Shown: positions 18,802-49,910, numbered from the stretch's first letter. The stretch is DNA of 64,000 nt from an uncultured Rhodobacterales bacterium (GCA_964586735.1 CAZPIN010000125.1:563-64562), one strand, 5' to 3'. Translations and numbers: made by a program. The notes: generated by a model not told the origin, from the letters alone.

Positions 18802-19110
18802 TCACACAGGCGCTCCGTTCCCCCAGCTCCCGTTGCCTTTCATCGCCTCGTCGATGCTGGGCGCCCTCAACAGCCGGATCCGCCAGCTGTCCAGATCCTC
18901 CTCCGACGCCGCCCGCAGCCGTTCATCCAGATCGTCTGGAACCTCGCCGAAACGCTCTTGGGCAATACCTAAGAGTACCTCGACTTTGCCTTCCGCCCAG
19001 CCTTTCGCTAGGCCCCGAGCCTCGCCCCGAGCCTCGCGTTCCGCAAGCAGACCCGGGGACAGCTGCTCTATCGCCATGTCCATCATCTCTTTACCTCTCT
19101 CGTTTCCCAA
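18802..19110 (-). CDS. Stand-alone DUF4351-like C-terminal-domain ORF (copy of the C-terminus of the upstream Rpn-like gene)
   Basis: It aligns end to end with the last ~100 aa of 19174..20232 ('GNERGKEMMDMAIEQLSPG...RFGEVPDDLDERLRAASEEDLDSW...EAMKGNGSWGNGAPV'). It is in the same frame as the upstream gene and is offset from it by 348 nt. Confidence 0.6.
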   Translation of the reverse strand: MGNERGKEMMDMAIEQLSPGLLAEREARGEARGLAKGWAEGKVEVLLGIAQERFGEVPDDLDERLRAASEEDLDSWRIRLLRAPSIDEAMKGNGSWGNGAPV

Positions 19111-19173
19111 AGCCTCAAGCGCCAGGCGGCGGCACCGCTCCGGCGGGAGCGCCTCAGGCGATTCGGGGCCACC

Positions 19174-20232
19174 TCACACTGGCGTCCCGTTTCCCCAGCT
19201 CCCGTTGCCTTTCATCGCCTCATCGATGTTGGGCGCGTCCAGCACCCGGTCCAGCCAGTCGTCGAGCTTCTCCTCAGACGCCGCTAGAAGCTGCGCCTCC
19301 AGATCACTCGGCTCTACGCCGAAACGCTTCCGGACAACGCGCAAGATCGACTCGACTTTGACTTCCGCCCGGCCCTCCGCCCGGACTTCAGCAAGCCGAC
19401 CCGGGGACAGCTGCTCTATCGCTATGTCCATCATCTCTTTACCTCTCTTGTTTCCCAAAGCCTCAAGCGCCAGGCGGCGGCACCGCGCATTGTCCTTCAG
19501 GCCGTTGACGATGTTAACAGCAATCGCCGTGCCTTTCAACTGCAGCTCCTCCATGATGTACCGATAGGCAAAGCCATACAGATCCCGTATCAGACCGTCG
19601 GTAACGTCCTTGCGGTTCTCCAGCCCAATCGCCACCAGCAGCGCCCAGAAATCGGGGTTCGCGTACAGCCTTTCCAAGGGTATCTCTCCCAGCAGAAGCA
19701 AATGCGTCGGCCCCATGCTGAAAAAGCCGCCCTCGAAGCCCATTGCCTTCAGTATCTCCTCGACGGTCGGCGGGACTCTGTCAGCGGCGGGGCCATGTAC
19801 CACCAGCCCCGCCAGCATCAGTATGGTCTTGCCTTCAAACGGGCCCTTCGGCCTGGACAGGTCTTCCGCCGCCAAGGCCGCATTGGCGCTAAGCTGCATC
19901 CGCGCCATCCGCTCGTAGTTGTGCTTGTGCTCCAAGACAGCGGCGAGGACAGCCTCGTCTGAAAGGTCGCCGACGAGGAGACCGTCCAGCTCCCGTCGCC
20001 GGCCGCCTTTGGTGATGACCGTACCGGACAGGAGCCGGACATTGTACAGTCGGCTGACCCGCGCTTTCGCCACCTCGACGATCATCCACATCAGCCCGCA
20101 AATGGACCCGGAGTCGCCGGTTGCGATGCGGAACGACGTGTCGTAGGGATGATGCTCGAAGTCCACCCTGAATGGAGGAGGGGACTCCTCCGGGCCTTGC
20201 GGCGATTCAGCGGGTTGTATTCTGATGGTCAT
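19174..20232 (-). CDS. Rpn/YhgA-like PD-(D/E)XK nuclease family protein with DUF4351-like C-terminal domain (paralog A)
   Basis: N-terminal 'HHPYDTSFRI' resembles the Rpn 'HDxxFK' motif. 'RELDGLLVGD...AAVLEHKHNYERMARMQL' resembles the Rpn 'D...hhhEhQS' nuclease core, with K in place of Q. The C-terminal 'RAEGRAEVKVESILRVVRKRFGVEPSDLEAQLLAASEEKLDDWLDRVL' has the DUF4351 pattern. Confidence 0.7.
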   Translation of the reverse strand: MTIRIQPAESPQGPEESPPPFRVDFEHHPYDTSFRIATGDSGSICGLMWMIVEVAKARVSRLYNVRLLSGTVITKGGRRRELDGLLVGDLSDEAVLAAVLEHKHNYERMARMQLSANAALAAEDLSRPKGPFEGKTILMLAGLVVHGPAADRVPPTVEEILKAMGFEGGFFSMGPTHLLLLGEIPLERLYANPDFWALLVAIGLENRKDVTDGLIRDLYGFAYRYIMEELQLKGTAIAVNIVNGLKDNARCRRLALEALGNKRGKEMMDIAIEQLSPGRLAEVRAEGRAEVKVESILRVVRKRFGVEPSDLEAQLLAASEEKLDDWLDRVLDAPNIDEAMKGNGSWGNGTPV

Positions 20233-20235
20233 TGG

Positions 20236-20604
20236 GAGTCTCCTCGTCCGGCTGCGAATCGGCGGAGTGCCGACTCTGGCAGCGAGGCAAATCTTCGTAC
20301 AGCTTCTGAGTCGATGTCAAATCGCGGCTAGAAAATTTTCACTAACACCTTGCCGGCAAAGGGCAAACTGCCGCAGCGCGTTGTTTTTAAGACCGTCTAA
20401 AAAGAGCGCCGAAACGGCACCTTCCCCGATTCGCGGGTGGAGGGTGCGAGGTGATTCGCTGCTGCCCGCGAGGCGATTCGCCGCCGCCCGGAGTGATTCG
20501 CCAAGGGTGATTCGCTGCTGGCCTGTGTCCATGGCGCGAGGTGATTCGCCGCTGCCCGAGGGGTGATTCGCTCGCCACCCGCAATCCTTCGCAGAGCGAT
20601 TCGC
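20236..20604 (+). repeat. Intergenic GANTC-dense region. Its core holds 8 same-strand copies of GATTCGC within degenerate ~22-bp units (gag-gtGATTCGCyGCTGCCCG)
   Basis: GATTCGC starts at 20428, 20453, 20475, 20495, 20509, 20543, 20565 and 20598. Additional GANTC sites lie at 20236 (GAGTC), 20256 (GAATC), 20272 (GACTC) and 20308 (GAGTC). Confidence 0.85.
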
Positions 20605-20685
20605 CGCTGTCAAGGGGCACCCCGCCCCCGGCTCCGGTCGCCAGAGCGTACCAGTCTGCCTGCTGCCGTTTCGTACAAATTGAAG

Positions 20686-20708
20686 GCCGTCGCGGCGGCG
20701 GCTTTTTT
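20686..20708 (+). terminator. Candidate intrinsic terminator (7-bp GC stem, 3-nt loop, T6)
   Basis: 'GCCGTCG-CGG-CGGCGGC' is followed by 'TTTTTT'. It is plus-strand oriented only, and no annotated plus-strand gene lies upstream of it. Confidence 0.4.
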
Positions 20709-21050
20709 GCCTCGGTCAGGGTACGGAGGTCCGTCGACGGAGCGGCATCCCATCAGCGTCGCGGGCACGGGCGCCGACGCGGAGTCCGAAACCACCATGC
20801 TGGAGTCCGTCCGCCAGCTGCATCGCAGCGGCTGGCAGGCGATGGTTCAGCCTAGCCGGGAAATTTCCCGCTGCTCCGCCGCCGCTGCGCTTAGCGACTG
20901 TGAGCCGTGATTCTCTCGGGACTGCGCAGCGTACAGAAGCCGTCTGAAGCCGCGGCAGCTGACCGCCGCCGCACTGGCCGTACTGACGGAGACGGCACCT
21001 CGGCGGCTGCGGCAGCCCGACTGCCTGCCATTGCCGCCGCACGGGGCGGG

Positions 21051-21079
21051 TTGACGTTCCTGCCGTTGTTTGCCATATT
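21051..21079 (+). promoter_or_regulatory. Candidate sigma70-type promoter of rpsB-tsf
   Basis: TTGACG-N17-CATATT, about 110 nt upstream of the rpsB start. Confidence 0.35.
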
Positions 21080-21189
21080 GCCTCCATTCCACACGCAGGC
21101 AACGGGACGGCTGCGCCTGCGCCGCCGTCCCTCCGGTTGTCCGGCCGCTGGCCGGATCGCGCCTGCGGAGGCAGAAACCGGAGGGTAAC

Positions 21190-22812
21190 TTGAACATTCC
21201 GCATTTCACCATGCGCCAGCTGCTGGAGGCTGGCGTGCATTTCGGCCATCGCACCGACCGCTGGAACCCCAAGATGGCCCAGTACATCTACGGGGCGCGA
21301 GGCGGCATCCACATCATCGACCTGACCCAGACCGTGCCTCTGCTGCACCAGGCGCTGGTGGCCATCCACCAGTGCGTGGCCAAGGGCGGCCGGCTGCTGA
21401 TGGTTGCCACCAAGCCCCAGGCTCGGGAGCCCATCCGTCAGGCGGCGGTGAGCGGCCAGCAGTTTTACATCAACAACCGCTGGCTGGGCGGCACGCTGAC
21501 CAACTGGAAGACCGTCTCGGCCTCGATCAACCGGCTGGTCGACCTGGAGAAGACGCTCGACAACCACGAGGCGGGGTTTTCCAAGAAGGAGCGCCTGCAG
21601 CTGGAGCGGCAGCGCGACAAGGTGGAGCTGGCCCTTGGCGGCATCCGCAACATGGGCACGCTGCCGGACATGCTGTTCGTGGTCGACGTCAACGAGAAGC
21701 GCATCGCCGTGGCGGAGGCTCGCAAGATCGGCATACCGGTGGTGGCCATCGTCGACACCAACTCCGACCCCACCGGCATCGACTACCCCATTCCCGGCAA
21801 CGACGACGCCACGCGGGCGGTAAGCCTGTACTGCGACCTCATCCTTGGCACGCTGATCGACGCTCTCGAAGTGCAGCTTGGCAGCCAGATGGAGGATCCT
21901 GGCGAGGCCAACGCGCCGGCGGGCGAGGCGGCGCTGAAGGAGGCGGCGGCTTCGGCTGGCGCCGATTCGCCGGCTGCCGCGGAGGAGGCTGTTGCCCAGT
22001 CGGCGGCTTCTCCGGTCGCGACGGCCGCTGTCGGCGCCGCGTCTCCACCAGCCGCGCCCGAGGTGTCTGCCGCCGCCGCAGCCGTGTCGCCGGTCGCGCC
22101 CGCTCCAGCGGATGCGCCCGCGCAGTTTGCGGCTGAGCCGGTTTCTGCTCCCGCGCCTGCAGCGCCTGTCGCATCGCCACCTGCAGTGGAGGCTCCAGCG
22201 GCCCCATCTCCCGCAGCGTCTCCAGCGGCCGAAGTCCCCGCGGCTGCGCCGCCAGCGGTTGAGCCGCCCCCGGCTCCCGCGCCTGCAGCGCCTGTCGCAT
22301 CGCCAACTGCAGTGGAGGATCCGGCGACCCCATCTCCCGCAGCGTCTCAAGCGGCCGAAGTTCCCGCGGCTGCGCCGCCAGCGGTTGAGCTGGTACCAGC
22401 CCCCGCGCCAGAAGCGCCCGTCACATCGCCACCCGCAGTGGAAGCCCCAGCGGTCCCATTTCACGCAGCGTCTCCAGCGGCCGAAGTCCCCGTGGCTGCG
22501 CCGCCAATGGTCGAGGCGGTACCAGCCTCCACGCCGGAAATGCCTTCCGCCGCACCGTCGACAGTGGAGGCTCCGGTGGTTCCATCTCCCGATTCGTCTA
22601 CTGCAGTTGAGGTTCCAGCGGCTCCATCTCCCTCTCCGTCTCCTGTGGTCGAAACCCCCGTGGCAGCGCCGCCAGCGGTGGAGTCCCAGTCGGCCACAGC
22701 GCCCGTCGGCGGCGTCGCGGACCCTGTGCAGTCGCCAGCCGCCGCGCCCGCTGCAGAGGAGGCGGCGCCGTCGCCAGCAACGGACGGCACCGCCGGGGAG
22801 GCATCCCAGTGA
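21190..22812 (+). CDS. rpsB: 30S ribosomal protein S2 with a ~290-aa Ala/Pro-rich repetitive C-terminal extension
   Basis: '[24 protein letters not shown]...' is the canonical S2 core. The start is TTG at 21190 after RBS 'ggaggg', or ATG at 21211. The tail begins near aa 260. Confidence 0.9.
22147..22690 (+). repeat. 126-bp (42-codon) tandem repeat, ~4 copies, inside the rpsB tail
   Basis: The string 'gctcccgcgcctgcagcgcctgtcgcatcgcca' recurs at 22147 and 22273. Diverged copies begin near 22399 and 22525. The peptide unit is '[38 protein letters not shown]..'. Confidence 0.85.
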
Positions 22813-23720: not shown

Positions 23721-23737
23721 CCGCGCGCAAAGCTGGC

Positions 23738-24472: not shown

Positions 24473-24499
24473 GCTGGCAACCATGGGAGGAACTGCACC

Positions 24500-25773: not shown

Positions 25774-25810
25774 CATGAGGGGTGCCTGACATGAGGGGTG
25801 CCTGACATGG
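25767..25810 (+). repeat. 16-bp tandem repeat (TGCCTGACATGAGGGG x2.75) spanning the uppS stop and the cdsA start
   Basis: Units lie at 25767-25782, 25783-25798 and 25799-25810 (partial). Confidence 0.9.
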
Positions 25811-27779: not shown

Positions 27780-27871
27780 GCGGGGGCGAGTCGCGACGTG
27801 GCCACATTCGTTTCTATGTTGCGCAGTGGCGGCAGCCCGCATACCACCGGTCAGGAGGCCTGATTCGAGCA

Positions 27872-34254: not shown

Positions 34255-35454
34255 ATGAGCAGGATTTTTCTGCTTGCCGCCGAGCCTTCGGGCGACCAGC
34301 TGGGAGCGCGGCTTGCGGCAGCGCTGCGGGAGATGGCCGGCAACCGGCTGGAGCTTGCGGGCATGGGCGGGCCCGCCATGGCGGAGCATGGCATCGAGGG
34401 GCCGTACGACACATCCAAACTCGCCGTCATGGGGCTTGCCGAGGTGGTGCCGAAGATTCCCCAGCTGCTGCGGCGCATCCGGCAGACCTGCCGCTGGATC
34501 GTCAAGGCGCAGCCTGCGGCGGTGGTGACCATCGACAGCCCGGATTTCATGCACCGCGTGGTGGCGAAGGCCCGCCCGCTTTGCCCCAACACCGCCTTCG
34601 TCAACTACGTGGCTCCCACCGTATGGATGTGGCGGGCGAAACGGGTGCATCGGATTGCCCAGCTCTACGACCTGCAGCTTGCCCTGCTGCCGTTTGAGCC
34701 GCCTTACTTCGAAACGTCGGGAGTGCGCTGCGCGTTCGTGGGGCATCCGGCCGTAGAAACGGCCGCCGATGGGCTGCCTTCGAAACGGGAGGCGCGGCGG
34801 TTGCTGGGACTGGATGACGAGGCTCCGGTTGCTGTGGCGCTGCCTGGCAGCCGCAGGTCTGAGATCCACCGCCACGGAAAGGTGTTTGGCGAAGCGCTGG
34901 CCCTGCTTGCGCGGCAGGTTCCGGGACTGGAGGTGATCCTGCCCATGGCCCCCGGCGTCGAATCGAAGGTAAGGGGCATGACGGAGTCTTGGCAGCCGAA
35001 ACCGCTGCTGGTGGAGGCGGGGTCCGGCGGTCCGGCGTCCCGCTGGACGGCCTACGCCGCCGCCGACGTGGCCTTGGCGGCATCGGGCACCGTAACGGTG
35101 GAGCTTGCCGCGGCGGGCTTGCCGATGGCTGTCGCCTACCGCCTTTCGCCGCTGACCTGGACGGTGCTGCGTAGGCTGGCCAAGCGGCGCCATGCCAGCC
35201 TGGTCAACCTGATGCTTGACGAGGATGCGGTGCCGGAGTTTCTCCAAGGCCGGTGCCAAGCCAAGCCCATCGCCAAATCGCTGGCAAGGCTGCTGGAGGA
35301 CAGGGCGGCGGCAGCGCTGCAGCAGTCTTCGCTGGAACGGGCTGCCGCCATGCTGTGGGGGGTCGGCGAAAGCAGCCCGCCGTCCATGCGGGCGGCGCGG
35401 GCGGTCTGGGAACTCGCAAGCAGCCGGGCGGAGACAGGGACCGCGGCCAGCTGA
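34255..35454 (+). CDS. lpxB: Lipid-A-disaccharide synthase
   Basis: 'IFLLAAEPSGDQLGARL' and 'VTIDSPDF'. Confidence 0.95.
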   Translation: MSRIFLLAAEPSGDQLGARLAAALREMAGNRLELAGMGGPAMAEHGIEGPYDTSKLAVMGLAEVVPKIPQLLRRIRQTCRWIVKAQPAAVVTIDSPDFMHRVVAKARPLCPNTAFVNYVAPTVWMWRAKRVHRIAQLYDLQLALLPFEPPYFETSGVRCAFVGHPAVETAADGLPSKREARRLLGLDDEAPVAVALPGSRRSEIHRHGKVFGEALALLARQVPGLEVILPMAPGVESKVRGMTESWQPKPLLVEAGSGGPASRWTAYAAADVALAASGTVTVELAAAGLPMAVAYRLSPLTWTVLRRLAKRRHASLVNLMLDEDAVPEFLQGRCQAKPIAKSLARLLEDRAAAALQQSSLERAAAMLWGVGESSPPSMRAARAVWELASSRAETGTAAS

Positions 35455-35505: not shown

Positions 35506-35845
35506 GACAGCCGCCTGAATCTGGCGACGCCATTCTGTAGCCCCTTGGCTTGCAGGCATCTTCCGGCCGCTCAAAGAGCGGCATTTGGCATGGACAGTCC
35601 CCGCATCCGAAGCGGTCCGCGCGTCGGGGAGATTGCTCGCTATGGTGAGGTCAAGCTGGAATTGGCCCTCGGTTTCGAGATGCGTCCGAGGGAATTGCAT
35701 CTGACCTTCGTCACGGCGCATCGAGTACAGTCAGGTGCCTCCAGCTCCGCCGCGGCGTGCGCCGAGTGGACTGGGAGTTCCACCCGAAACCAGCCAGAAA
35801 CCGCCGCTGGCCGAGTCCAGAGGCGGGAGAAAGGAGAAAGCCAAA

Positions 35846-36904
35846 ATGGCCTACCCGATGGGAGAGCAGCCGCGCCAGAATCAGGGCGGCGAAGAGACCA
35901 CTGAGACCGAGCGGCTGGAGGCATGGATGCAGGGCTGGCCGAGCCAGTTCTACGACGGCTACAGCTTCAGGATACTCAGCAACATGGAAACAGCGTTGGC
36001 GGTCATCGTTTACGCCGTGCGAAAAGCCGGAAAGCACAGGCTTGCAAAGAAGCTGGAGGGAGGCTCGCTGGTAATGGCTCCCACTCGCCTGGTCGGTGAA
36101 ACCCTGCGCCAGAGATACCGCGACCTTTCGTACAGGTGGAAGCCCAAAAGAAAAGGTTCTAACGAGATTCGGATTGACATTGAGGCCACCAGTGGCTCCG
36201 ACCAGCTGGTCACGGTCCGCTCGACGGACTACTCGGTTCAGGGAGCGTTGCAGGAGGCAGCTTCGCAGAAGAGGGTCAGCCGCCGCGCCCCCGGATTCAC
36301 GATGGTCATCAATTTCGGCCCCAGGGGTCTTCGGGTGTCCTGCGTGTTCGAGGAGATGTTTTCGGACTACGACGAGCTTGAGGGGCTCGGGCCTCGCAAC
36401 ATAACTGTCCAGCTGGACCTTATGGCGATGACGCTTGAGGAAATCCTTGCGGCATTCGACTGCCGTACCGCGTGTGTCCTTGGGATACTCCGCATCGCCA
36501 ACAGGCCGCGGGAGTTTCGCAAGGCGGACATTTTCAGGGTGATCAAACTGGCGGCGGGGGACTGGGAGCGCGAGCAGATGGTCGCTCTCTGCATTGCATG
36601 CCGGTTCAAGGGAGTGTACTATAGGTGGGCGCTGCAGGCGCTGGACGAAGCAGGAATAGGGAGAGACAACGTGGAAGGCATGATGGAAATCCGGGAACGG
36701 GAGGCCAAGGCCGAGGGCGTGGCCGATGTGCTGCTGCGGCAAGTACGGGAGAAGTTCAAGGACATATCTGACCGGAGGGAGGCGCAGGTGCGGTCAGCTA
36801 CGCTTGAGCAGCTGGAGGAGTGGGCGGTGCGCCTTCTGCATGCCCGCGACATCGATGCGCTGTTCGCCGGAAGCGGCCGGGCTAGGAGCCAGCCTCAGGG
36901 ATAG
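35846..36904 (+). CDS. Divergent Rpn-like family protein with DUF4351-like C-terminal domain (paralog B)
   Basis: The ATG at 35846 follows RBS 'aaaggagaaag'. The C-terminal 'REREAKAEGVADVLLRQVREKFKDISDRREAQVRSATLEQLEEWAVRLLHARDIDALF' has the DUF4351 pattern. 'FYDGYSFRIL' resembles the Rpn N-terminal motif, but the nuclease core motif is not clear. Confidence 0.55.
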   Translation: MAYPMGEQPRQNQGGEETTETERLEAWMQGWPSQFYDGYSFRILSNMETALAVIVYAVRKAGKHRLAKKLEGGSLVMAPTRLVGETLRQRYRDLSYRWKPKRKGSNEIRIDIEATSGSDQLVTVRSTDYSVQGALQEAASQKRVSRRAPGFTMVINFGPRGLRVSCVFEEMFSDYDELEGLGPRNITVQLDLMAMTLEEILAAFDCRTACVLGILRIANRPREFRKADIFRVIKLAAGDWEREQMVALCIACRFKGVYYRWALQALDEAGIGRDNVEGMMEIREREAKAEGVADVLLRQVREKFKDISDRREAQVRSATLEQLEEWAVRLLHARDIDALFAGSGRARSQPQG

Positions 36905-37000
36905 CCGTCGGCGGCTTGGCTGCGGTAGCGGCGACTTACTCTCTCCTGCTGCTCTGGGCAGCGGCCGACGCTGGACGAGGCAGGAATTGGGAGAGACAAC

Positions 37001-37234
37001 GTGGAAGGCATGATGGAAATCCGAGAACGGGAGGCCAAGGCCGAGGGCAAGGCCGAGTTGCTGCTCCAACTTGTACGGCAGAAGTTCAAGGACATATCCG
37101 ACCGGAGGGAGGCACAGGTGAAGTCGGCCTCGCTTGAGCAGCTGGAGAATTGGGCGGCGCGTCTGCTGAGCCCTCGCGATCTCGATTCGCTGTTTGGCGG
37201 GAGTGGCCGGGCAAAGCGCCAGCCGCAGGGGTAG
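37001..37234 (+). CDS. Stand-alone DUF4351-like C-terminal-domain ORF (copy of the paralog B C-terminus)
   Basis: 'EGMMEIREREAKAEGKAELLLQLVRQKFKDISDRREAQVKSASLEQLENWAARLL' closely matches the last 77 aa of 35846..36904. It is offset by 330 nt and is in the same frame. Confidence 0.55.
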   Translation: MEGMMEIREREAKAEGKAELLLQLVRQKFKDISDRREAQVKSASLEQLENWAARLLSPRDLDSLFGGSGRAKRQPQG

Positions 37235-37299
37235 CCGTCGGCGGCTCGGCTGCGGCTGCAGCGACTGCAGAGTAAGGATGCATTCGGTTGACCGCAGCG

Positions 37300-37436
37300 G
37301 GTCGGTCAGCAGCAGTCCATGCGGGCGGCGCGGGCGGTCTTGGAACTGGCGAACGCCCCATACGGAGGAGGGCAGAGCAGCCGGCTGAAAGCGGCACGCA
37401 TTTGACAGACCGCCAGCAGCCTTGCGGTGCATAGAC
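37300..37436 (+). repeat. Right copy of the lpxB-3'-end direct repeat
   Basis: See 35361..35505. This copy is non-coding and more decayed. Confidence 0.8.
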
Positions 37437-37517: not shown

Positions 37518-38624
37518 ATGGCAAAGAAAATCAAGATCAGGAAATACAGGCCACCGAGGCTTTCCGCGTCGCACTACACCAGGTATGCGTTTGAGCAGCT
37601 GATCACTGGGTATTCGGACGAGCCTGCAGAGCGCTCGTCCCTCGTCCGTACCGCTACCCGTCTTCTTATCGAGGAAGCCTTGGAGGAGGAGGCCAAGGAT
37701 GTCATGGGCCGCGGCTATTACCAGCATGGAGGCGCGAATGGAGGGGGATACCGCAACGGCACCCGCATATGCCGCCTCAAGTCCGCCAGCAGCGTCATCG
37801 AATACGGTGCGCCGCAGATTACCGGCAGAGAGGGGGGATTCAGCTCCGGAATCCGGAGGCATCTCAAGAAGCGCGGTGAAGTGGCCGAGAGTCTGGCGAT
37901 GCACATTCTGGCCCGCGGCTGCACCGCCCGCGAAGTCAACTGCTCCTTCACCGGCGAGGACGGAAAGCCGCTTCTTTCGCGAGCCGCGGTGAAGCGGCTA
38001 GCCGAGCGGCTGCAGGAGGACTACAGCAACTTTTCCACCCGCGAACTGTACCGGTACAAGGTTGCCTATCTTGTCTTCTGCCCTGTCATCGAACGGCGAC
38101 ATCCGGGCAAAAAGAAGGAACGAGTCATGGCAGCTTGGGGGAGTATCGAAACGGAAAGATGGCGATACGTCGAAAAGGGAAAGAAAGTTCTGCTTGGGCT
38201 CATGGCCAGCGCAAAGGAGGACGAGGAGACCGTAACCGGCTTCTTCCAGGACATGCGTTCCCGCGGTCTCGCTGACCCTGTGATGGTGCTTGCCGACGGC
38301 GCGCCAGGAATTACCAAGGCGATCGAGGCATGCTTTCCAGACGCGGTGCGGCAGCGCAGACTGGTTAATAGGTATCGCGCTCTGGAATCCAAAGTGCCGA
38401 AGAGCGTTTGGCCAGAGTTCGAAACGCGGGTGAAGGCCGCCTATCAGGCTCCCGGCAGGTTCCTGTCCCGCGACCTGGCCAAAGAGGTGGAGAGGGACTT
38501 CGAGGGGAAGCATCCAGAAGCGGTAGCCTGCTTTCTGGACGATTTCGACGCGTGCAATGCGTATCTTCGCATGCCGGTCGACCATCGCCAAGAGATTGAA
38601 AACGTCAACCTGTTCGCGTGGTAG
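37518..38624 (+). mobile_element. IS256/Mutator-family transposase-like gene, degenerate (probably inactive)
   Basis: 'VMVLADGAPGITKAIEACFPDAVRQRRLVNRYRALESKVPKS' parallels IS256 'SDgh.Gl..ai...fp.a.wQRC.vH..RN'. Conserved residues are replaced: the first Asp region is 'YLVFCPV', and C->R, H->N. The ORF stops at 'IENVNLFAW', where 'irTTN.iE' continues in intact members. I found no inverted repeats. Confidence 0.65.
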
Positions 38625-41579: not shown

Positions 41580-41581
41580 GG

Positions 41582-42769: not shown

Positions 42770-42775
42770 CCGCGG

Positions 42776-43258: not shown

Positions 43259-43261
43259 GCC

Positions 43262-45629: not shown

Positions 45630-45652
45630 CGGTCGGATTCCTTGCCGCTTTC

Positions 45653-47206
45653 CTAACGGTCGGGGGCTGCGGCCGCCAGCTGCGCCGCCCGCCGCAGCGC
45701 CAGGCCGAGCTCTGTCAATGGTTGCGGCTGGGCTTCGGCCGCCAGCTGCGCCGCCCGCCGCAGCGCCCAGGACTTCTGGATGGTCTCCTGAAGTTCAAAC
45801 TCGGGATCCGAATCGTGTACCACGCCGCCGCCGGCCTGGATGTGCATGCGACCGTCCTTGAACACGGCGGTGCGCAGGGCGATGCAGGTGTCCATGTCGC
45901 CCGAAGAGGAAAAGTAGCCCAGCGCGCCGGCGTAGACGCCCCGCTTGAGCGACTCGAGCTCGTCGATGATCTCCATTGCCCGGATCTTGGGAGCGCCGGA
46001 CACGGTGCCGGCGGGCAGGGCGGCCAGCAGCGCGTCGAGGGCGGTGAGGTCGTCGCGCAGGTTGCCCTCTACGTTGGAGACGATGTGCATGACATGGCTG
46101 TAGCGTTCGACCGTAAACTCCTCGGTGGGGCGCACCGTGCCCACCTTGGCGACCCGTCCGACGTCGTTGCGCCCCAGATCGAGCAGCATCAGATGCTCGG
46201 CGCGCTCTTTGGGGTCGGCCAGCAGCTCCTCTTCCAGCTGCCGGTCCTCCTCGGCGGTTGCGCCGCGGGGGCGGGTGCCGGCGATGGGCCGCAGCGTGAT
46301 CCTGCGGTCGCGGCAGCGCACCAGAATCTCCGGGCTGGCGCCGGCCACCTGAAAGCCGCCAAACTCGAAGTAGAACATGTACGGCGAGGGGTTGGTGCGG
46401 CGCAGCGCCCGGTACAGGTCGAAGGGCGAATGGGGGAAGTCGATGCTCCACCGCTGGCTTGGCACCACCTGGAAGATGTCGCCGGCGCGGATGTACTCCT
46501 TGGCGCGCAGCACAGTCTCGCGGAACGTCTCCGGCGCCGTCTGCGCCTCGAACTCCAGCTGCTGGCCATCGCCGTCGCGGGCGCGGGGCAGGGCAAGAGG
46601 GGACTCGAGCTTCCCTAGCGCGCTCTCCAGCCTGCCATGCGCCTCCTGCCAGGCGGATTCGGCGTCCACCTCGGGATCGTGCCAGGCCGGCGCGCACAGC
46701 ATGGTCTCGTCGCGGACGCTGTCGATGATGGCCAGCAGGCCGGGGCGAAGCAGCAGCGCGTCGGGCAGGCCAAGGGGATCCTCGTTGGGCGGCGGCAGCC
46801 GCTCGATCAGGCGCGCCATGTCGTAGCCGAGATAGCCGAACAGTCCCGCCGCCATCGGCGGAGCGCCCTCGGGCAGGTCCATGGCGCACGAGTCCAGCAG
46901 CGCACGGAGGTTTTCCAGCGGAGGAGCCGATTCTGGCCTGAAGTCGCCATCCGCCACGGCCGTCTCCGCCTGTCCGCCGCGGCAGCGCCAGACGAGATCG
47001 GGGGCGACGCCAACCACCGAGTAGCGTCCGCGGGTTTCGCCGCCGGTGACCGATTCGAGGAGGAACGCGCTGTCCTCGCCGCGGGCGAGCCGCAGGTACA
47101 GCGAAACCGGCGTGTCGAGGTCCGAGCTCACGTCCAGCCGCAGCAGCTGGCTGCGGCCTTCCCGCCAGCCGCGGGCGAAGGTCTCGGCATCAGGTGTAAC
47201 GCGCAT
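45653..47206 (-). CDS. trpE: Anthranilate synthase component I
   Basis: 'LLESV', 'GAPKIRAMEIIDELE', 'RGVYAGALGYF'. The ATG at 47206 ('MRVTPDAETF') is the likely start. Confidence 0.95.
   Translation of the reverse strand: MRVTPDAETFARGWREGRSQLLRLDVSSDLDTPVSLYLRLARGEDSAFLLESVTGGETRGRYSVVGVAPDLVWRCRGGQAETAVADGDFRPESAPPLENLRALLDSCAMDLPEGAPPMAAGLFGYLGYDMARLIERLPPPNEDPLGLPDALLLRPGLLAIIDSVRDETMLCAPAWHDPEVDAESAWQEAHGRLESALGKLESPLALPRARDGDGQQLEFEAQTAPETFRETVLRAKEYIRAGDIFQVVPSQRWSIDFPHSPFDLYRALRRTNPSPYMFYFEFGGFQVAGASPEILVRCRDRRITLRPIAGTRPRGATAEEDRQLEEELLADPKERAEHLMLLDLGRNDVGRVAKVGTVRPTEEFTVERYSHVMHIVSNVEGNLRDDLTALDALLAALPAGTVSGAPKIRAMEIIDELESLKRGVYAGALGYFSSSGDMDTCIALRTAVFKDGRMHIQAGGGVVHDSDPEFELQETIQKSWALRRAAQLAAEAQPQPLTELGLALRRAAQLAAAAPDR
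45671..45767 (+). repeat. 31-bp perfect direct repeat (two copies, 35-bp spacer) in the 3' end of trpE
   Basis: 'ggccgccagctgcgccgcccgccgcagcgcc' occurs at 45671-45701 and 45737-45767. It encodes a duplicated 'ALRRAAQLAA' in the TrpE C-terminus. Confidence 0.9.
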
Positions 47207-47306
47207 CGTCAAGGAGCGTCGGTTCGGCGGTTGTACGTCCGTCAGATAGAGGATGGGGCGGGCCGCCAGCGGCAAGCGTTACGTGCGTGTACAAGGCACG
47301 GCCTGG

Positions 47307-47687
47307 CTAGCTCGCTACCCGCTTCCGGCGTGGGGACCGGGCGGTAACTTCATTGAGGGCAGGGTCGCTGTCGGTGTCGTCGTCGAACACCGCGTTGATA
47401 CTGCTGGCCGTGAGTATCCGGCACAGCCAGGTGTCAATTTGCTGCTTCGAAGCGGTGCGCACCTGCGCCTGCCTGTCTTCGGGCACGCTCCCATACTTGC
47501 TCGTTGCCAGCATCAGGAAGTTCTCGAACTTGGCCTTGGCCCAGCCCTTATCCCATCCCTCGGACCAGTACTCGCCCCAGTCCTCGGCCACGCCCCTAGC
47601 CATGGTTTGCTTCCAGTCTTCGGCCCGAAGCGCCTCTAACGACGTGTCCATAATCTCCTCATTTGCCTTCGGTGCCGCAACACCCAC
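47307..47687 (-). CDS. DUF4351-like C-terminal-domain ORF (single module)
   Basis: 'EEIMD...WSEGWDKGWAKAKFENFLMLATSKYGSVPEDRQAQVRTASKQQIDTWLCRILTASSINAVF'. It has a GTG start. The N-terminal 'MGVAAP' is shared with 48160..48726. Confidence 0.5.
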   Translation of the reverse strand: MGVAAPKANEEIMDTSLEALRAEDWKQTMARGVAEDWGEYWSEGWDKGWAKAKFENFLMLATSKYGSVPEDRQAQVRTASKQQIDTWLCRILTASSINAVFDDDTDSDPALNEVTARSPRRKRVAS

Positions 47688-47825
47688 CGTTCACCCTCTT
47701 GAGGCAAACGCACGAAACGCCATGCCCGGCGATACGTGCCAACAGAACATACAGTTTTAGTTCTTCGTGTAAAACTTCGGCCTCCTGAACGGATTGGCAA
47801 TGTCCTCGTCATAAGAGGGGGCGGT
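47688..47825 (-). pseudogene. Remnant of the central part of an Rpn-like paralog
   Basis: Bases 47709-47822 align at DNA level with 49081-49194 of paralog C ('...YTKN' followed by an in-frame TAA where paralog C has Gln). Confidence 0.5.
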
Positions 47826-48059
47826 CGCCTGCCCGCCGCGGCGGCGCCAGGCGATTTCGGAGCGGCGCCGGTCACCAAGTAGCATCGGTGCGCTTTGCCT
47901 TCGGTGACCGATTCGAGAAAGAGCGTCATGTCCTCAATGGGGGAGCGCCTCAGGAACAGCGAAACCGGCGTGTCGATGTCCGGTCCTGCATTCAGGCGAA
48001 GCAGCTGGGTGCGACCCTCCTGCCAGCCGCGAAGTCTCGGCACCAGAGGCAACGCGCGT
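47826..48059 (-). pseudogene. Duplicated 5' fragment of trpE (about 75 codons) with its start codon destroyed
   Basis: 'RGWQEGRTQLLRLNAGPDIDTPVSLFLRR...FLESVTEGKAHRCYLVTGAAP' aligns with TrpE 'RGWREGRSQLLRLDVSSDLDTPVSLYLRL...LLESVTGGETRGRYSVVGVAP'. The ATG has become ACG (plus-strand 'cgt' at 48057-48059 versus 'cat' at 47204-47206), and there is a small indel. Confidence 0.75.
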
Positions 48060-48159
48060 CGCCAAGGAAACGTGGTCAGGCAGTCGTTCGTCTGTCTGGC
48101 TTTAGCTGGAACGGACCGCCGACGGCAAGCGCCAAACGGGTGCCCAAGACATGGCCAGT

Positions 48160-48726
48160 CTACTTGGCCGTACGCTTCAGCGGTGGTGACTTGACGGGAA
48201 CATCATTGACGGCGTGGCCGTTGCCTGCGTCTTCGTCAAACACCGCATTGAGACTTGTAGCAGTGAGTATCCGGGGTAGCCAGTATTCAATCTGCGGTAC
48301 CGAAGAGGCGCGCACCAGTTCCTCTATGTGACCTGGCACTCGCCGATACTTGCTCCTTGCCAGTATCAGGAAGTCCTCGGCCTTGGCTTCGGACCTGGCC
48401 TTGGCCTCGTTCTGGGTCATGCCCCTGTCATCGTCGAACACCAGGCTGAGACTGGGAGCCCTGAGAACCCGGAGCAGCCAGTTGTCAAGCTGCGGTATCC
48501 AAGCGGAGCGTACCTGCGCCTCTCTGTCCTCCGGCACTCGACCAAACTTGCTCCTCGCCAGCATCAGGAAGTCCTCGGTTTTGGCCGTGGCCTCGGCCTG
48601 TTCCATGCCATCGTCTGCGACTACCTCATAGGCTACGGCCATAATCTCTTCGACCAACGGCTTCGATGCCACTTTGTCCGACGTCTCCATGGTCTCCTCC
48701 ATCACTTCCGGTCCTGCGACGCCCAT
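48160..48726 (-). CDS. ORF made of two tandem DUF4351-like modules
   Basis: Module 1 is 'TEDFLMLARSKFGRVPEDREAQVRSAWIPQLDNWLLRVLRAPSLSLVF'. Module 2 is 'AEDFLILARSKYRRVPGHIEELVRASSVPQIEYWLPRILTATSLNAVF'. Confidence 0.5.
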   Translation of the reverse strand: MGVAGPEVMEETMETSDKVASKPLVEEIMAVAYEVVADDGMEQAEATAKTEDFLMLARSKFGRVPEDREAQVRSAWIPQLDNWLLRVLRAPSLSLVFDDDRGMTQNEAKARSEAKAEDFLILARSKYRRVPGHIEELVRASSVPQIEYWLPRILTATSLNAVFDEDAGNGHAVNDVPVKSPPLKRTAK

Positions 48727-48803
48727 AATCGCTGTCGGGCAACTACGGCAGTCTCAGCGATTCTGTGCTTACCCTCAGCACGGCTGCCAGTTCGCAGAAC
48801 CAT

Positions 48804-49910
48804 CTAGTCGGTGCGCTTGCCGCTGCCGTTGAACACCGCCTCGATGTCGGGCGCGGCATACAGGCGATCAAGCCAGTCATCGACCTGCTCCTGCGAAGCG
48901 TTGCGCACCTGGTCTGCCAAATGGTCAGGGACGCTCTGAAACCGCCTTTCGGCAGCCCGCAGAAATGTCACACTTCGGCCTTCGGCCAGACCTTCGGCCC
49001 AAAACATCTCGAATGACGGGTCCATAATCTCCTCCACCATGTCCTGTCCCAGAACGTTCGCAATCGCCTTCTCGATTCGAACGCGCGAAACGCCTTGCTC
49101 GGCGAGTGCACCTACAGCATACTGCCTCTGGTTCTTCGTGTAAAGCCCGAGCCCCTCTGCAATATATTCAAGGTCCTTGTCACTCAGCGGCGGTCCGTCA
49201 CGGGTTCCCCTTGCAACCAGCAGCGGCGCACCCGCCGCCGCGTTCTTGGTGAGTTCCTGCCGGCGAAGGTTCCCCAGGTAGAAGTGGACGACCTTCTCCG
49301 CCGTCAGCGTTTCCGCCTTTTCCTCGGGTGTCAGTTTCGCCAGCTCGGCCAGAGATTTCGGGCGGGTCTGCGTCGCCTTCCCGTTCAGTACAATAACGCC
49401 ATTGAGGATTGGCACTTCGCCCCATGTCGTTACTCCATCTTCCACCAGCTGGCGGGTAAGACGGAACGCGGAGCTGACCACCTGAAGCTCGGCCAGCTTC
49501 GTCTTGTCCGACTTGTGCTCATAGGCGCTGACCACGGGCCTCCCGTCGGTGTGCTTTGCCAGCAGGCCCAAATCGGCCTCGTCGATGAGGAAGTCTCCGC
49601 CCTCAACGCGAGTGGGAAGCGGGCGGGGATGAAAATTCCTGTCGAGATTCCGGTAGACCACACCCGCCAGCGTGAGGCGAAGCAGCTCCCAAAGGGTATC
49701 GGGGAAATTGGCGAGCCAGCGGATGTTGGCATCCCACGGGTGGGCCCTTCTCCTTGGTGGCTTCTCTGTTCCAGCCTGTTCCTGCTCCGGCTGGTTCGAC
49801 TCGTGTGTCTGTTCTGGCATGGCCATGCCTCCTCTGTCTGGGGTGACGCTTGGCATCGCCGCCCGGCGAATCACTCCGCCGCCGCGGCCATGCTCGTTTG
49901 TGCAGTCCAC
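48804..49910 (-). CDS. Rpn/YhgA-like PD-(D/E)XK nuclease family protein with DUF4351-like C-terminal domain (paralog C)
   Basis: 'HPWDANIRWLANFPDTLWELL' is an Rpn-like N-terminal motif. 'DEADLGLLAKHTDGRPVVSAYEHKSDKTKLAELQV' fits the D...EhK core. The C-terminus reads 'WAEGLAEGRSVTFLRAAERRFQSVPDHLADQVRNASQEQVDDWLDRLYAAPDIEAVF'. Confidence 0.7.
   Translation of the reverse strand: MDCTNEHGRGGGVIRRAAMPSVTPDRGGMAMPEQTHESNQPEQEQAGTEKPPRRRAHPWDANIRWLANFPDTLWELLRLTLAGVVYRNLDRNFHPRPLPTRVEGGDFLIDEADLGLLAKHTDGRPVVSAYEHKSDKTKLAELQVVSSAFRLTRQLVEDGVTTWGEVPILNGVIVLNGKATQTRPKSLAELAKLTPEEKAETLTAEKVVHFYLGNLRRQELTKNAAAGAPLLVARGTRDGPPLSDKDLEYIAEGLGLYTKNQRQYAVGALAEQGVSRVRIEKAIANVLGQDMVEEIMDPSFEMFWAEGLAEGRSVTFLRAAERRFQSVPDHLADQVRNASQEQVDDWLDRLYAAPDIEAVFNGSGKRTD

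What the first reader, a model, noticed from the sequence alone, without database searches (positions are those of the whole stretch)
18802..49910. Dispersed Rpn/YhgA-like nuclease family in which every full-length gene is trailed by stand-alone copies of its own C-terminal domain: a candidate extragenic 'RpnS-type' toxin/antitoxin or defence arrangement
Three loci wedged between core operons carry paralogous proteins: korA|rpsB, lpxB|gltA and trpE|ppiD. Each protein has an Rpn-like N-terminal region and a C-terminal domain with the DUF4351 pattern. The N-terminal region shows an HDxxFK-like motif and a D...EhK nuclease core. The C-terminal domain has a charged AEG/KAE linker followed by 'hLL..h..RFG.hP..h...h..As.EQLD.Wh.RLL.A.sh..hF'. 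Immediately downstream of each full-length gene, on the same strand, lie 1-3 intact ORFs that encode only that C-terminal domain: 18802-19110, 37001-37234, 48160-48726 (two modules) and 47307-47687. The orphan ORFs start exactly at the domain boundary. In loci A and B, both the full-length gene and its orphan carry an SD-like purine run followed by ATG-ATG at that boundary ('gagaggtaaagagATGATGgac' in A, 'gtggaaggcATGATGgaa' in B). Locus C has only single Met codons there ('EEIMD'). Published work on E. coli Rpn proteins, as I recall it, describes them as toxic, phage-defensive nucleases. Their toxicity is neutralised by a small C-terminal-domain protein (RpnS) translated from an internal start. 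Separate, amplified genes for that domain would be a different genetic solution and, to my knowledge, have not been described. The orphans have diverged in their middles but keep open frames, which argues for selection rather than pure decay.
Basis: partly seen in the sequence, partly recalled or inferred. Interest (0 to 1): 0.85.

Follow-up and report, generated by a model that had tools for sequence, protein, structure and literature searches.

The report
Rpn nuclease genes with spare antitoxins
Three horizontally acquired, highly divergent Rpn-type toxin/antitoxin (phage-defence) nuclease genes are each followed by stand-alone copies of their small C-terminal "antitoxin" domain, the same arrangement already published for E. 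coli rpnE-ypaA, so this is a new example of a known design rather than a new one.

Summary
The sequence observation holds. Three paralogous ~340-350-aa genes sit in low-GC inserts between core genes. Each is followed on the same strand by 1-2 intact ORFs (5 modules in all) that encode only the C-terminal domain. Each module starts at a Shine-Dalgarno + ATG that also lies inside the parent gene.

Pfam and NCBIfam barely detect the proteins, but profile searches place them in the Rpn/YhgA family (PF04754 nuclease + DUF4351). A and C keep the D...ExK catalytic motif; B has lost it. The orphans arose by tandem 3' duplications of 330-372, 198 and ~855 bp, and the last also copied the 5' end of trpE.

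The novelty claim fails. Zhong et al. 2023 (PMC10400941) describe separately encoded downstream RpnS genes (rpnE-ypaA, rpnC), their tandem-duplication origin and the DUF4351 stand-alone genes. I re-derived the same anatomy for K-12 rpnE-ypaA.

New details:
- The orphans are not simple decay. They recur in relatives, and A's orphan is closer to the orthologues than A's own C-terminus.
- The C orphans are a different, old C-terminal type.
- N- and C-terminal phylogenies disagree, which hints at cassette exchange.

Verdict: new member of a known kind, modest interest.

The parts
19174..20232 (-). Locus A full-length Rpn-like gene (RpnL-type, 352 aa; identical to database protein P0001). It carries HPYDTSFR, D83, E101-H-K103 and VVHG motifs and a DUF4351-type C-terminal domain.
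   Evidence: hhalign to a canonical Rpn gives probability 97.9, E 4e-13. An HMM of 45 PF04754-positive proteins scores it 129.6 bits over the full length. The AF2 model has pLDDT 82 with alpha-beta-beta-beta-alpha-beta order. The top Foldseek PDB hits are PD-(D/E)XK nucleases, none significant.
19174..19434 (-). Predicted internal RpnS-type ORF of locus A. The SD GAGAGG is at 19447-19442 and ATGATG at 19434-19429 (86 aa).
   Evidence: Sequence read. The Met is invariant in 10 family members. Promoter-like hexamers lie at 19539-19489 inside the gene. Expression was not tested.
18802..19086 (-). Locus A orphan (RpnSs-type, 94 aa from ATGATG at 19086; identical to database protein P0035; the longest ORF reaches 19110). 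It has two extra tetrads, including a perfect 12-nt x2.2 repeat at 19012-19037 (EARGEARG).
   Evidence: Its core is 77/73/62% identical to the C-termini of orthologues P0002/3/4, against 46/60/56% for A_full's own core.
18761..19486 (-). Tandem duplication of locus A (two units of 372/348 bp). Each unit runs from ~50 nt upstream of the internal ATG to ~40 nt past the stop.
   Evidence: The pattern is mosaic: pS ~0 over the first ~30 codons and pS ~0.5, pN ~0.3 in the middle.
35846..36904 (+). Locus B full-length Rpn-like gene (352 aa from ATG at 35846; identical to P0020; the longest ORF starts at 35735). Its active site is degenerate (D present, 'IEAT' in place of 'EHK').
   Evidence: Pfam gives DUF4351 27.0 bits (passes) and PF04754 19.3 bits (below 21). 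The canonical-Rpn HMM scores it 107 bits.
36680..36904 (+). Predicted internal RpnS-type ORF of locus B (ATGATG at 36680-36685, preceded by GGAAGG; 74 aa).
37010..37234 (+). Locus B orphan (74 aa from ATGATG at 37010; the longest ORF starts at 37001). It has the same length as the parent module and is 78% identical to it.
   Evidence: DUF4351 scores 34.0 bits. dN/dS against the parent is 0.30 (0.15-0.61). A related stand-alone 77-aa protein, P0128, occurs in another genome.
36626..37266 (+). Tandem duplication of locus B (330-bp unit, 84% identity). It includes ~45 nt upstream of the ATGATG and ~30 nt past the stop.
37312..37350 (+). A 39-nt copy (92%) of the 3' coding end of lpxB (35379-35417). 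Together the two copies bracket the whole locus B insert as direct repeats.
   Evidence: (E 2.5e-8). The origin is unresolved.
48804..49820 (-). Locus C full-length Rpn-like gene (338 aa from ATG at 49820; identical to P0021; the longest ORF reaches 49910). It carries HPWDANIR, D and EHK motifs and a 'type 1' C-terminal core.
   Evidence: The canonical-Rpn HMM scores it 155 bits. Relatives P0026 and P0027 pass the PF04754 gathering score.
48804..49025 (-). Predicted internal RpnS-type ORF of locus C (GGAGGAG-ATT-ATG at 49025; 73 aa). A promoter-like TTTACA-17-TATGCT lies at 49144-49116.
48160..48726 (-). Locus C orphan 1: two fused 'type 2' C-terminal modules (188 aa) made by an internal 198-nt duplication. 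SD + ATG candidates are at 48690 (GGAGGAG) and 48420 (module b).
   Evidence: Two- to four-module DUF4351 proteins exist elsewhere (P0033, P0045, P0049, P0087).
47307..47687 (-). Locus C orphan 2 ('type 2' core with a long W-rich tetrad run). The likely start is GAGGAG-ATT-ATG at 47651 (114 aa).
   Evidence: Its 5' boundary and ~200 nt upstream are copied from inside C_full (79-84%), including the promoter-like element at 47773-47746. The upstream part no longer codes (stop, 1-nt indel).
47826..48159 (-). Pseudo-trpE: a decayed copy of the trpE leader and first ~310 nt, co-duplicated with an orphan in an 853-859-bp tandem unit.

Best explanation
The three loci are horizontally acquired, very divergent members of the Rpn (YhgA-like, PF04754/COG5464) family. 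Each has an N-terminal PD-(D/E)XK DNA endonuclease (RpnL) fused to a helical DUF4351-type C-terminal oligomerisation domain.

Shown here:
- Family membership.
- The D...ExK motif in A and C, and its loss in B.
- A conserved in-frame SD + Met at the domain boundary.
- A variable run of 4-residue (12-nt) repeats in the first long helix.
- Orphans generated by tandem duplication of the gene's 3' end, starting upstream of the internal ribosome-binding site.

Inferred by homology to the E. coli and C. difficile systems of Zhong et al. 2023:
- RpnL is toxic.
- A short RpnS is translated from the internal start and binds RpnL through the shared C-terminal domain to block it.
- The pair acts as a toxin-antitoxin-type anti-phage system.
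- The downstream ORFs are 'RpnSs' genes, giving extra or alternative RpnS-type proteins, probably co-transcribed with or read from the duplicated internal signals.

Published specificity depends on matched repeat number. On that rule B_orph (same length, 78% identical) could act on B_full. A_orph (+2 tetrads) and the C orphans (a different core type) are more likely to be non-cognate partners or former or alternative C-termini.
For: Family:
- A profile of the window family finds 4683 proteins (435 at E<=1e-10).
- Of 50 aligned, 46 match PF04754 (best 9e-52) and 29 match DUF4351.
- An HMM built only from the 45 canonical proteins aligns A, B and C end to end at 130, 107 and 155 bits.
- hhalign to a PF04754+DUF4351 protein gives probability 97.9, E 4e-13.
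- Relatives P0026 and P0027 pass the PF04754 cut-off.
- The AF2 model (pLDDT 82) has PD-(D/E)XK secondary-structure order, and nuclease folds top the Foldseek list.

Internal start: the Met is invariant in 10 members, SD strings are present, and promoter-like elements are present.

Tetrads: length variation of 0-33 aa and a perfect 12-nt repeat.

Same anatomy as the published case: K-12 rpnE-ypaA re-analysed; text.

Orphans not mere debris:
- B dN/dS is 0.30 (0.15-0.61), and C_o1a/C_o2 is 0.44 (0.23-0.76).
- A_orph is closer to the orthologues than A_full's own C-terminus.
- The coding sequence upstream of C_orph2's start has decayed while the ORF is intact.
- Intact orphans occur with cognate-like full-length genes in other genomes: P0046 (94% core identity to P0004) and P0052 (83% to P0003), each inferred to share a contig with its partner from matching contig lengths.

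Acquired inserts:
- GC is 0.59-0.64 against 0.67-0.73 in the flanks.
- ppiD abuts trpE in all 40 inspected rows of the 76 (of 80) alphaproteobacterial loci with a PpiD match, and none of the 80 carries a relative.
Against: - No experiment: toxicity, internal initiation, binding and phage defence are all inferred.
- Direct Pfam and NCBIfam hits are sub-threshold for A and C, and PADLOC has no match.
- The N-terminal-only hhalign is weak (probability 41%, P 3e-4).
- No Foldseek hit reached E<=1e-3, and the orphan model did not retrieve RpnA_S (7TH0).
- dN/dS for A (0.60, CI to 1.13) and C_o1b/C_o2 (0.70, CI to 1.21) cannot exclude neutrality.
- The co-duplicated trpE fragment is plainly junk.
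- One relative's orphan (P0095) is decayed.
- RefSeq calls ypaA a pseudogene.
- B_full probably cannot cut DNA, so at least that pair is not a working nuclease toxin.
Confidence: 0.75

Rival explanations
1. The orphans are non-functional debris of error-prone tandem duplication around the rpn 3' ends. The open frames persist by chance in GC-rich DNA, and only the intragenic RpnS matters.
For: - Stop-free survival is not improbable per orphan (P 0.09-0.57).
- dN/dS for A and for C_o1b/C_o2 overlaps 1.
- The same duplication process copied a useless trpE 5' fragment.
- P0095 is a decayed orphan in a relative.
- ypaA is annotated as a pseudogene in RefSeq.
Against: - The joint probability that all modules stay open is about 0.002-0.03 before counting indels, and every indel in the modules is in frame.
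- B has dN/dS 0.30, and the orphan-orphan pair C_o1a/C_o2 has 0.44 with CI <1.
- A_orph keeps 77% core identity to an orthologue whose N-terminal domain is only 59% identical.
- The sequence upstream of the orphan start decays while the ORF and its SD do not.
- The arrangement recurs in other genomes.
- YpaA is translated in E. coli.
Confidence: 0.2
2. The orphans serve mainly as a reservoir of alternative C-terminal specificity cassettes. Recombination between the near-identical 'handle' at the domain boundary (and the conserved 3' tail) swaps or fuses a new C-terminus onto the nuclease domain, or displaces an old one downstream. This would work like orphan toxin tips of Rhs/CdiA loci or silent pilS copies. 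It is not exclusive of the best explanation.
For: - Identity is mosaic. In A, 95 nt around the internal start differ at 3 positions (pS ~0), while the core has pS ~0.5. In B, the boundary and the stop-proximal non-coding 26 nt are the best conserved. In C, only the boundary is C_full-like.
- N- and C-terminal trees disagree. P0027 has a 32% N-terminus but a 69% C core to C_full. P0026 has a 41% N-terminus but a 40% C core to C_full, 56-60% to the C orphans and 77% to orphan module P0045a.
- P0045 joins a type 2 and a type 1 module.
- A_orph carries the family-typical core, whereas A_full's resident core is the outlier.
- Zhong et al. note fusions of the rpn N-terminal region with the downstream rpnSs region.
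Against: - No switching event was observed, and no close strains were available.
- The conserved boundary could reflect selection on the SD, start and first helix, or ordinary gene conversion.
- A simple deletion between handles only loses material.
- No dedicated recombinase is present.
Confidence: 0.25
3. The loci are autonomous mobile elements ('transposase_31'). Their insertion generates long target duplications, and the orphans are by-products of transposition.
For: - All three sit as low-GC inserts between conserved core genes.
- Locus B is bracketed by a 39-nt direct repeat of the lpxB end.
- Locus C has weak 20-nt repeats at both edges plus the trpE 5' copy.
Against: - No terminal inverted repeats were found.
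- Repeat lengths are inconsistent (39 nt, ~330 nt, none significant at A).
- The trpE copy lies inside the island as part of an 853-859-bp tandem unit, not at its edge.
- No PD-(D/E)XK protein is known as an autonomous transposase, and Zhong et al. found no evidence of transposition.
- A truncated IS256-family transposase next to locus B offers another source of rearrangement.
Confidence: 0.05

Closest known systems
E. coli rpnE-ypaA (RpnE_L/RpnE_S plus downstream RpnE_Ss) and rpnC with downstream rpnC_Ss (Zhong et al. 2023, PNAS, PMC10400941)
   Same: - A full-length Rpn gene is followed on the same strand by a stand-alone ORF for the C-terminal domain.
- The copy starts at the duplicated internal RBS/ATG.
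- The 5' part is nearly identical and the 3' part more diverged.
- The copy differs by whole 12-nt (4-aa) repeats: ypaA +1, A_orph +2.
- Each orphan derives from its own upstream gene by tandem duplication.
- rpnE, like B_full, is a catalytically inactive member.
   Different: - The window proteins are only ~20-25% identical to canonical Rpn proteins and escape Pfam and NCBIfam thresholds.
- Their C-terminal domain is the longer DUF4351 type, whereas RpnE_S and YpaA give no DUF4351 hit.
- Up to three modules follow one gene, and two of them are fused into one ORF.
- In locus C the orphan cores are a different, anciently diverged type.
- One duplication swallowed part of a neighbouring essential gene.
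Rpn / YhgA-like family in general (PF04754 Transposase_31, COG5464; Kingston et al. 2017, PMC5350276) with DUF4351 (PF14261) C-termini
   Same: - Domain order is conserved.
- The motifs PHD..FR, D, EHK/EHQ and YHG are present.
- There is an internal Met at the domain boundary and a hypervariable tetrad repeat in the first helix of the C-terminal domain.
- Distribution is patchy, as single-gene inserts without inverted repeats.
   Different: This is a small alphaproteobacterial clade (fewer than 15 proteins at 50% clustering with E<=1e-30). YHG is replaced by VHG/LNG. No experimental data exist.
Orphan toxin/immunity cassettes downstream of rhs and cdiA genes; silent pilS cassettes (analogy only, from general knowledge)
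   Same: Promoter-less or weakly expressed 3' modules lie downstream of a full gene. They share a short, highly conserved 'handle' with it and carry a divergent specificity region. Module phylogeny is incongruent with that of the main gene.
   Different: There is no homology. Here the variable module is the regulatory or antitoxin-like domain rather than the toxic tip. Each module has its own SD/ATG. Switching was not observed.

Membership tests
Rpn (YhgA-like) recombination-promoting nuclease family | N-terminal domain homologous to PF04754/COG5464 | tested here: met
   Direct Pfam hits are sub-threshold (only B_full, 19.3 < 21), but several indirect tests agree:
- 46 of the 50 sequences in alignment A10 (45 family-profile hits plus 5 proteins of the window's own clade) are PF04754-positive.
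- An HMM of those 45 proteins aligns A, B and C across the N-terminal domain at 107-155 bits.
- Relatives P0026 and P0027 pass the cut-off.
- The N-terminal-only hhalign is weak (P 3e-4).
Rpn (YhgA-like) recombination-promoting nuclease family | PD-(D/E)XK fold with catalytic D ... E-x-K/Q | tested here: inconclusive
Rpn (YhgA-like) recombination-promoting nuclease family | C-terminal helical RpnS-type domain (DUF4351 in many species) | tested here: met
   DUF4351 passes for B_full and B_orph and is near threshold for A. All eight modules align with the C-terminus of a PF04754+PF14261 protein. The AF2 models show one long helix plus short helices. The Foldseek search did not retrieve 7TH0.
Rpn (YhgA-like) recombination-promoting nuclease family | Internal translation start (RBS + ATG) at the domain boundary giving RpnS | not testable with these tools
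   The sequence prerequisites are met: SD-like strings 3-8 nt before an in-frame ATG in all three genes and all orphans, a Met invariant in 10 members, and promoter-like hexamers upstream in A and C. Actual initiation needs Ribo-seq or tagging.
Rpn (YhgA-like) recombination-promoting nuclease family | Hypervariable number of 4-aa (12-nt) repeats in the first helix of the C-terminal domain | tested here: met
   The region varies from 0 to ~33 aa among 13 modules with EGRx / xGWx periodicity. A_orph has a perfect 12-nt x2.2 repeat that A_full lacks (24-nt gap). P0052 has +1 tetrad relative to P0003.
Rpn (YhgA-like) recombination-promoting nuclease family | RpnL toxicity and endonuclease activity blocked by cognate RpnS; anti-phage activity | not testable with these tools
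   Known only from Zhong et al. 2023 for E. coli and plasmid Rpn proteins. PADLOC has no model that matches.
RpnSs arrangement (downstream stand-alone RpnS, as in rpnE-ypaA) | A same-strand downstream ORF encoding only the C-terminal domain, derived from the upstream gene by tandem duplication that includes the internal RBS | tested here: met
   Loci A and B meet it fully. In locus C it is met for the boundary segment only, because the cores are of another type. The reference case was re-analysed.

The most novel reading that the evidence does not exclude
The stand-alone modules are not just spare antitoxins. They form a cassette system: a conserved recombination handle at the internal-start boundary (and at the 3' tail) lets C-terminal specificity domains move between 'resident' and 'orphan' positions. 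This re-pairs the nuclease with a new oligomerisation/antitoxin domain and stores displaced or alternative versions downstream. It would be a diversification mechanism for a toxin-antitoxin defence gene, analogous to Rhs/CdiA orphan tips. The nuclease itself may provoke the local tandem duplications, including collateral copies of trpE and lpxB ends.
Probability: 0.25. Interest if true: 0.6.

Novelty: new member of a known kind. Interest (0 to 1): 0.3.

Why it matters
The finding adds a remote alphaproteobacterial clade to the Rpn toxin/antitoxin defence family, one that current Pfam, NCBIfam and PADLOC models miss. It shows that the 'extra RpnS gene' arrangement described in E. coli also recurs outside the enterobacteria, with up to three modules per gene.

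The mosaic identity and the disagreement between N- and C-terminal phylogenies give a concrete, testable lead on two questions Zhong et al. left open: how the downstream copies arise, and what repeat-mismatched copies are for. It does not reveal a new kind of system.

Tried and rejected
- Exact-protein contig look-ups for P0001-P0004, P0022, P0023, P0046 and P0128 returned nothing. Only two short Logan contigs came back: L001 (C_full alone) and L083 (P0026 plus a truncated downstream ORF).
As a result, no DNA of close relatives was available, and branch-specific dN/dS and synteny of the orphans could not be done.
- The TrpE-anchored genome scan gave only distant genomes (<=66%). It was useful only to show the empty ppiD-trpE site.
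- Foldseek of the orphan model against PDB gave nothing.
- Profile searches of PDB sequences gave only noise.
- NCBIfam and PADLOC gave no hits.
- The plasmid tblastn found only C-terminal matches to Skermanella Rpn genes, with no orphan downstream.
- A transposon reading was rejected: no inverted repeats and inconsistent flanking repeats.
- A further copy elsewhere in the window was rejected. The 62-64 kb repeat is the two halves of an ABC ATPase.

Full report
**1. Observation**

The seven ORFs are present as described:
- Locus A, minus strand: a 352-aa gene (19174-20232) followed by a 102-aa ORF (18802-19110).
- Locus B, plus strand: 35735/35846-36904 followed by 37001-37234.
- Locus C, minus strand: 48804-49820/49910 followed by 48160-48726 and 47307-47687.

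All-against-all BLASTP shows that each small ORF matches only the last ~80-100 residues of the long proteins:

| Pair | Identity |
|---|---|
| A orphan to A_full | 63% |
| B orphan to B_full | 78% |
| C orphans to C_full | 33-41% |
| C orphans to each other | 45-51% |

At DNA level the orphans are tandem duplications:
- A 372/348-bp unit in A (75.7%).
- A 330-bp unit in B (84%).
- In C, a 198-nt internal duplication that makes the two-module ORF.
- In C, an 853-859-bp unit that contains an orphan plus the leader and first ~310 nt of trpE. This leaves a decayed pseudo-trpE at 47826-48159.

They occur in both parent and orphan: GAGAGGTAAAGAG-ATGATG in A and GGAAGGC-ATGATG in B. Locus C has GGAGGAG/GAGGAG-ATT-ATG.

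The flanking genes are korA, rpsB, lpxB, gltA, trpE and ppiD. There are no other copies in the window.

**2. What the proteins are**

Standard libraries almost miss them. DUF4351 passes Pfam's threshold only for B_full and B_orph. PF04754 reaches 19.3 bits (cut-off 21) on B_full only, and NCBIfam and PADLOC give nothing.

The word-indexed protein search found only 3, 0 and 2 relatives for A, B and C.

A profile of the eight family members, run against 1.84 billion representatives, found 4683 proteins at E<=1e-3 and 435 at E<=1e-10. Most align end to end and are ~300-350 aa long.

Further profile evidence:
- Of 50 aligned sequences, 46 match PF04754 (best 9e-52) and 29 match DUF4351.
- An HMM built only from the 45 canonical proteins aligns A_full, B_full and C_full over both domains at 130, 107 and 155 bits.
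- hhalign against a PF04754+PF14261 protein gives probability 97.9%, E 4e-13.
- With the C-terminal domain removed, the signal is weak (P 3e-4). The motifs PHD..FR, D, EHK and (Y)HG still align.
- Two relatives of C_full pass PF04754 directly.

The AlphaFold2 model of A_full (pLDDT 82, pTM 0.70) has the alpha-beta-beta-beta-alpha-beta order expected of a PD-(D/E)XK core. D83 lies before strand 2 and E101-x-K103 at the end of strand 3, followed by a helical C-terminal domain.

Foldseek against the PDB gave no significant hit. Its top ranks are mainly PD-(D/E)XK nucleases: R2 endonuclease, NucC, McrC, Can2/Card1, EndoMS and cap-snatching endonucleases.

A_full and C_full keep D...ExK. B_full has D and E, but 'EAT' replaces 'EHK'. 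It is therefore probably inactive, like E. coli RpnE.

**3. The C-terminal module**

The eight modules in the window, and those of relatives, share this core: AEGK.E.LL..A..RFG.VP...E.Q.R.AS.EQLD.W..RLL.A.SID..F.

Before that core lies a segment whose length varies from 0 to ~33 residues with 4-residue periodicity: EGRx in the A clade and xGWx in C_orph2. A_orph carries a perfect 12-nt x2.2 repeat (EARGEARG) where A_full has a 24-nt gap.

The Met at the boundary is invariant in ten family members.

Promoter-like hexamers lie 60-100 nt upstream of the internal ATG in A_full and C_full. The C_full element is duplicated, and retained, upstream of C_orph2.

Three of these features match what Zhong et al. 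2023 describe for Rpn proteins: an internal RBS and start producing RpnS, an internal transcription start, and hypervariable 4-aa repeats in the first helix of a three-helix domain that mediates RpnL-RpnS binding. In their work only RpnS with a matched repeat number neutralised RpnL.

**4. Comparison with the literature**

Zhong et al. report the following:
- ypaA downstream of rpnE (RpnE_Ss) is translated.
- A second rpnC_S lies downstream of rpnC in some strains.
- Each downstream copy clusters with its own upstream gene.
- Rpn arrays arise by tandem direct duplication.
- The downstream gene can be lost by deletion or by fusion with the rpn N-terminal region.

Koonin's commentary also notes the second RpnS copy.

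I fetched K-12 rpnE-ypaA and found the same anatomy as loci A and B:
- The duplicated segment begins at the internal RBS (AAAAGGAGAGATTAATG).
- The 5' half is almost identical.
- There is one 12-nt (KLEG) indel.
- The 3' half is more diverged.

Multi-module stand-alone DUF4351 proteins with 2, 3 or 4 modules are also present in the databases (P0033, P0045, P0049, P0087).

**5. Debris or selected?**

Open frames alone are weak evidence. Simulated neutral divergence leaves each orphan stop-free with P 0.09-0.57, or about 0.002-0.03 jointly.

Pairwise dN/dS values:

| Pair | dN/dS (95% CI) |
|---|---|
| B | 0.30 (0.15-0.61) |
| C_o1a / C_o2 | 0.44 (0.23-0.76) |
| A | 0.60 (0.32-1.13) |
| C_o1b / C_o2 | 0.70 (0.37-1.21) |

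Stronger arguments for selection:
- **Relative rate.** A_orph's core is 77/73/62% identical to the C-termini of orthologues P0002/3/4. A_full's own core is only 46/60/56% identical, so the orphan is the conservative copy.
- **Internal control.** The ~200 nt upstream of C_orph2's start are coding in C_full. In the orphan unit they have acquired a stop and a 1-nt indel, while the ORF, its SD and the promoter-like element are intact.
- **Recurrence.** Intact orphans exist in other genomes: P0046 (94% core identity to P0004), P0052 (83% to P0003, +1 tetrad) and P0128 (63% to B_orph). P0046 and P0052 are on contigs of the same length as their full-length partners (28,025 and 35,499 bp), which suggests the same contigs. 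A Logan contig shows P0026 followed by a same-strand ORF that ends in a tetrad-like run at the contig edge.

Against selection, one relative's orphan (P0095) is decayed, and the trpE fragment shows that the duplication process is indiscriminate.

**6. What goes beyond the published picture**

*Mosaic identity.* In A, the ~95 nt around the internal start differ at 3 positions (pS ~0 over 30 codons), while the core has pS ~0.5 and pN ~0.3. In B, the boundary and the 26 nt after the stop are the best-conserved parts.

*Locus C.* The orphan cores are a separate 'type 2': 56-63% identical to each other but only 33-40% to C_full's 'type 1'. Only the boundary is C_full-like.

*Incongruent domains.* Domain phylogenies disagree:

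| Relative | N-terminal identity to C_full | C-terminal core |
|---|---|---|
| P0027 | 32% | 69% to C_full (type 1) |
| P0026 | 41% | 40% to C_full; 56-60% to the C orphans, 77% to orphan module P0045a (type 2) |

P0045 joins a type 2 and a type 1 module.

These observations fit exchange of C-terminal cassettes between resident and orphan positions through the conserved boundary. That is consistent with the 'fusion' events mentioned by Zhong et al. No switching event was seen, and gene conversion plus selection on the start region could give the same pattern.

**7. Context**

The three loci have lower GC (0.59-0.64) than their surroundings (0.67-0.73).

Of 80 alphaproteobacterial trpE loci, 76 have a PpiD match. 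In all 40 of those rows that I inspected, ppiD ends within ~100 bp, occasionally a few hundred bp, of trpE. None of the 80 carries a relative of these genes. Locus C is therefore a ~3-kb insertion into a conserved gene junction.

The closest TrpE in the species-representative collection is only 66% identical (a Rhodobacterales MAG), so no close genome was available.

Locus B is bracketed by a 39-nt direct repeat of the lpxB 3' end (92%, E 2.5e-8). It is followed by a 3'-truncated IS256/Mutator transposase gene. Locus A has no significant flanking repeat.

These features do not fit a transposon: there are no inverted repeats and the repeat lengths are inconsistent. They are better read as varied tandem duplications around the rpn 3' ends, as Zhong et al. 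also concluded.

**8. Verdict**

The Rpn/RpnS reading is well supported by homology and anatomy. The function (toxic nuclease, intragenic antitoxin, phage defence) is inferred and untested.

The 'extragenic RpnS' arrangement is already published, so this is a new, remote member of a known kind.

The residual interest lies in the evidence that orphans are maintained, that several are repeat-mismatched or of a different type from their neighbour, and that C-terminal domains appear to be exchanged.

Noticed in passing
window 47826-48159 (-), compared with 46967-47306: A decayed copy of the trpE leader and first ~310 nt (pseudo-trpE, frame lost after ~65 codons) lies between the two locus C orphans. 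It was co-duplicated with an orphan in an 853-859-bp tandem unit.
   Followed up: yes
window 35379-35417 and 37312-37350 (+): A 39-nt direct repeat (92%, E 2.5e-8) of the 3' coding end of lpxB brackets the whole locus B insert (spacing 1,933 bp). Weaker similarity continues for ~90 nt. The cause is unresolved: it could be a larger tandem duplication later truncated, or an insertion with target duplication.
   Followed up: partly
window 37518-38624 (+): An IS256/Mutator-family transposase ORF (PF00872, E 3e-35, profile positions 22-337 of 379, so 3'-truncated) lies immediately after locus B, between it and gltA.
   Followed up: partly
window 20443-20611 (+): A cluster of 4-6 copies of an 18-nt motif, GGTGATTCGCYGCYGCCC (spacings 22/34/34 nt), sits between the start of A_full and rpsB. 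It occurs nowhere else in the window (4 matches against 0.9 expected). Its function is unknown.
   Followed up: partly
window 47248-47267 and 50221-50240: A weak 20-nt direct repeat (85%) lies just upstream of trpE and just downstream of the ppiD stop, at both edges of the ~3-kb locus C insert. It may be a remnant of the original ppiD-trpE spacer or a chance match.
   Followed up: partly
window 21070-22812 (+), repeats 22129-22645: rpsB carries a long Ala/Pro-rich C-terminal extension built from 126-nt tandem repeats (3.7 copies, 81%). NCBIfam's 'S2 sunset domain variant' model scores below its cut-off.
   Followed up: no
window 60502-60680 (-): The only Rfam hit in the window is the Ruegeria Cis52 sRNA (96.5 bits, E 3e-17). 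This fits a Rhodobacterales-like organism whose closest TrpE in the species collection is only 66% identical.
   Followed up: no
window 19174-19176 / 19110 and 36902-36904 / 37001: In loci A and B the orphan is in the same reading frame as the upstream full-length gene. It is separated by a single stop codon and 21-32 sense codons, because the duplication units (372 and 330 bp) are multiples of 3. Locus C is not in frame. This is probably incidental.
   Followed up: no
protein P0023 (relative of C_full, another genome): This 377-aa homologue reads the C-terminal domain in a shifted frame from the domain boundary onward. A frameshift or sequencing error there would uncouple the nuclease domain from its C-terminal module while leaving an internal-start RpnS possible.
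   Followed up: no
L083 2525-2728 (+) (Logan SRR16090826): Downstream of P0026 (a full-length relative with an 'orphan-type' C-terminus) lies a same-strand ORF. It ends in a tetrad-like run (AKGWNLGEAEG) at the contig edge and is likely another orphan, with a longer N-terminal extension.
   Followed up: partly
window 62199-63718: An internal DNA repeat (72-87%) corresponds to the two ATPase halves of one ABC-transporter gene. It is unrelated to the finding.
   Followed up: partly
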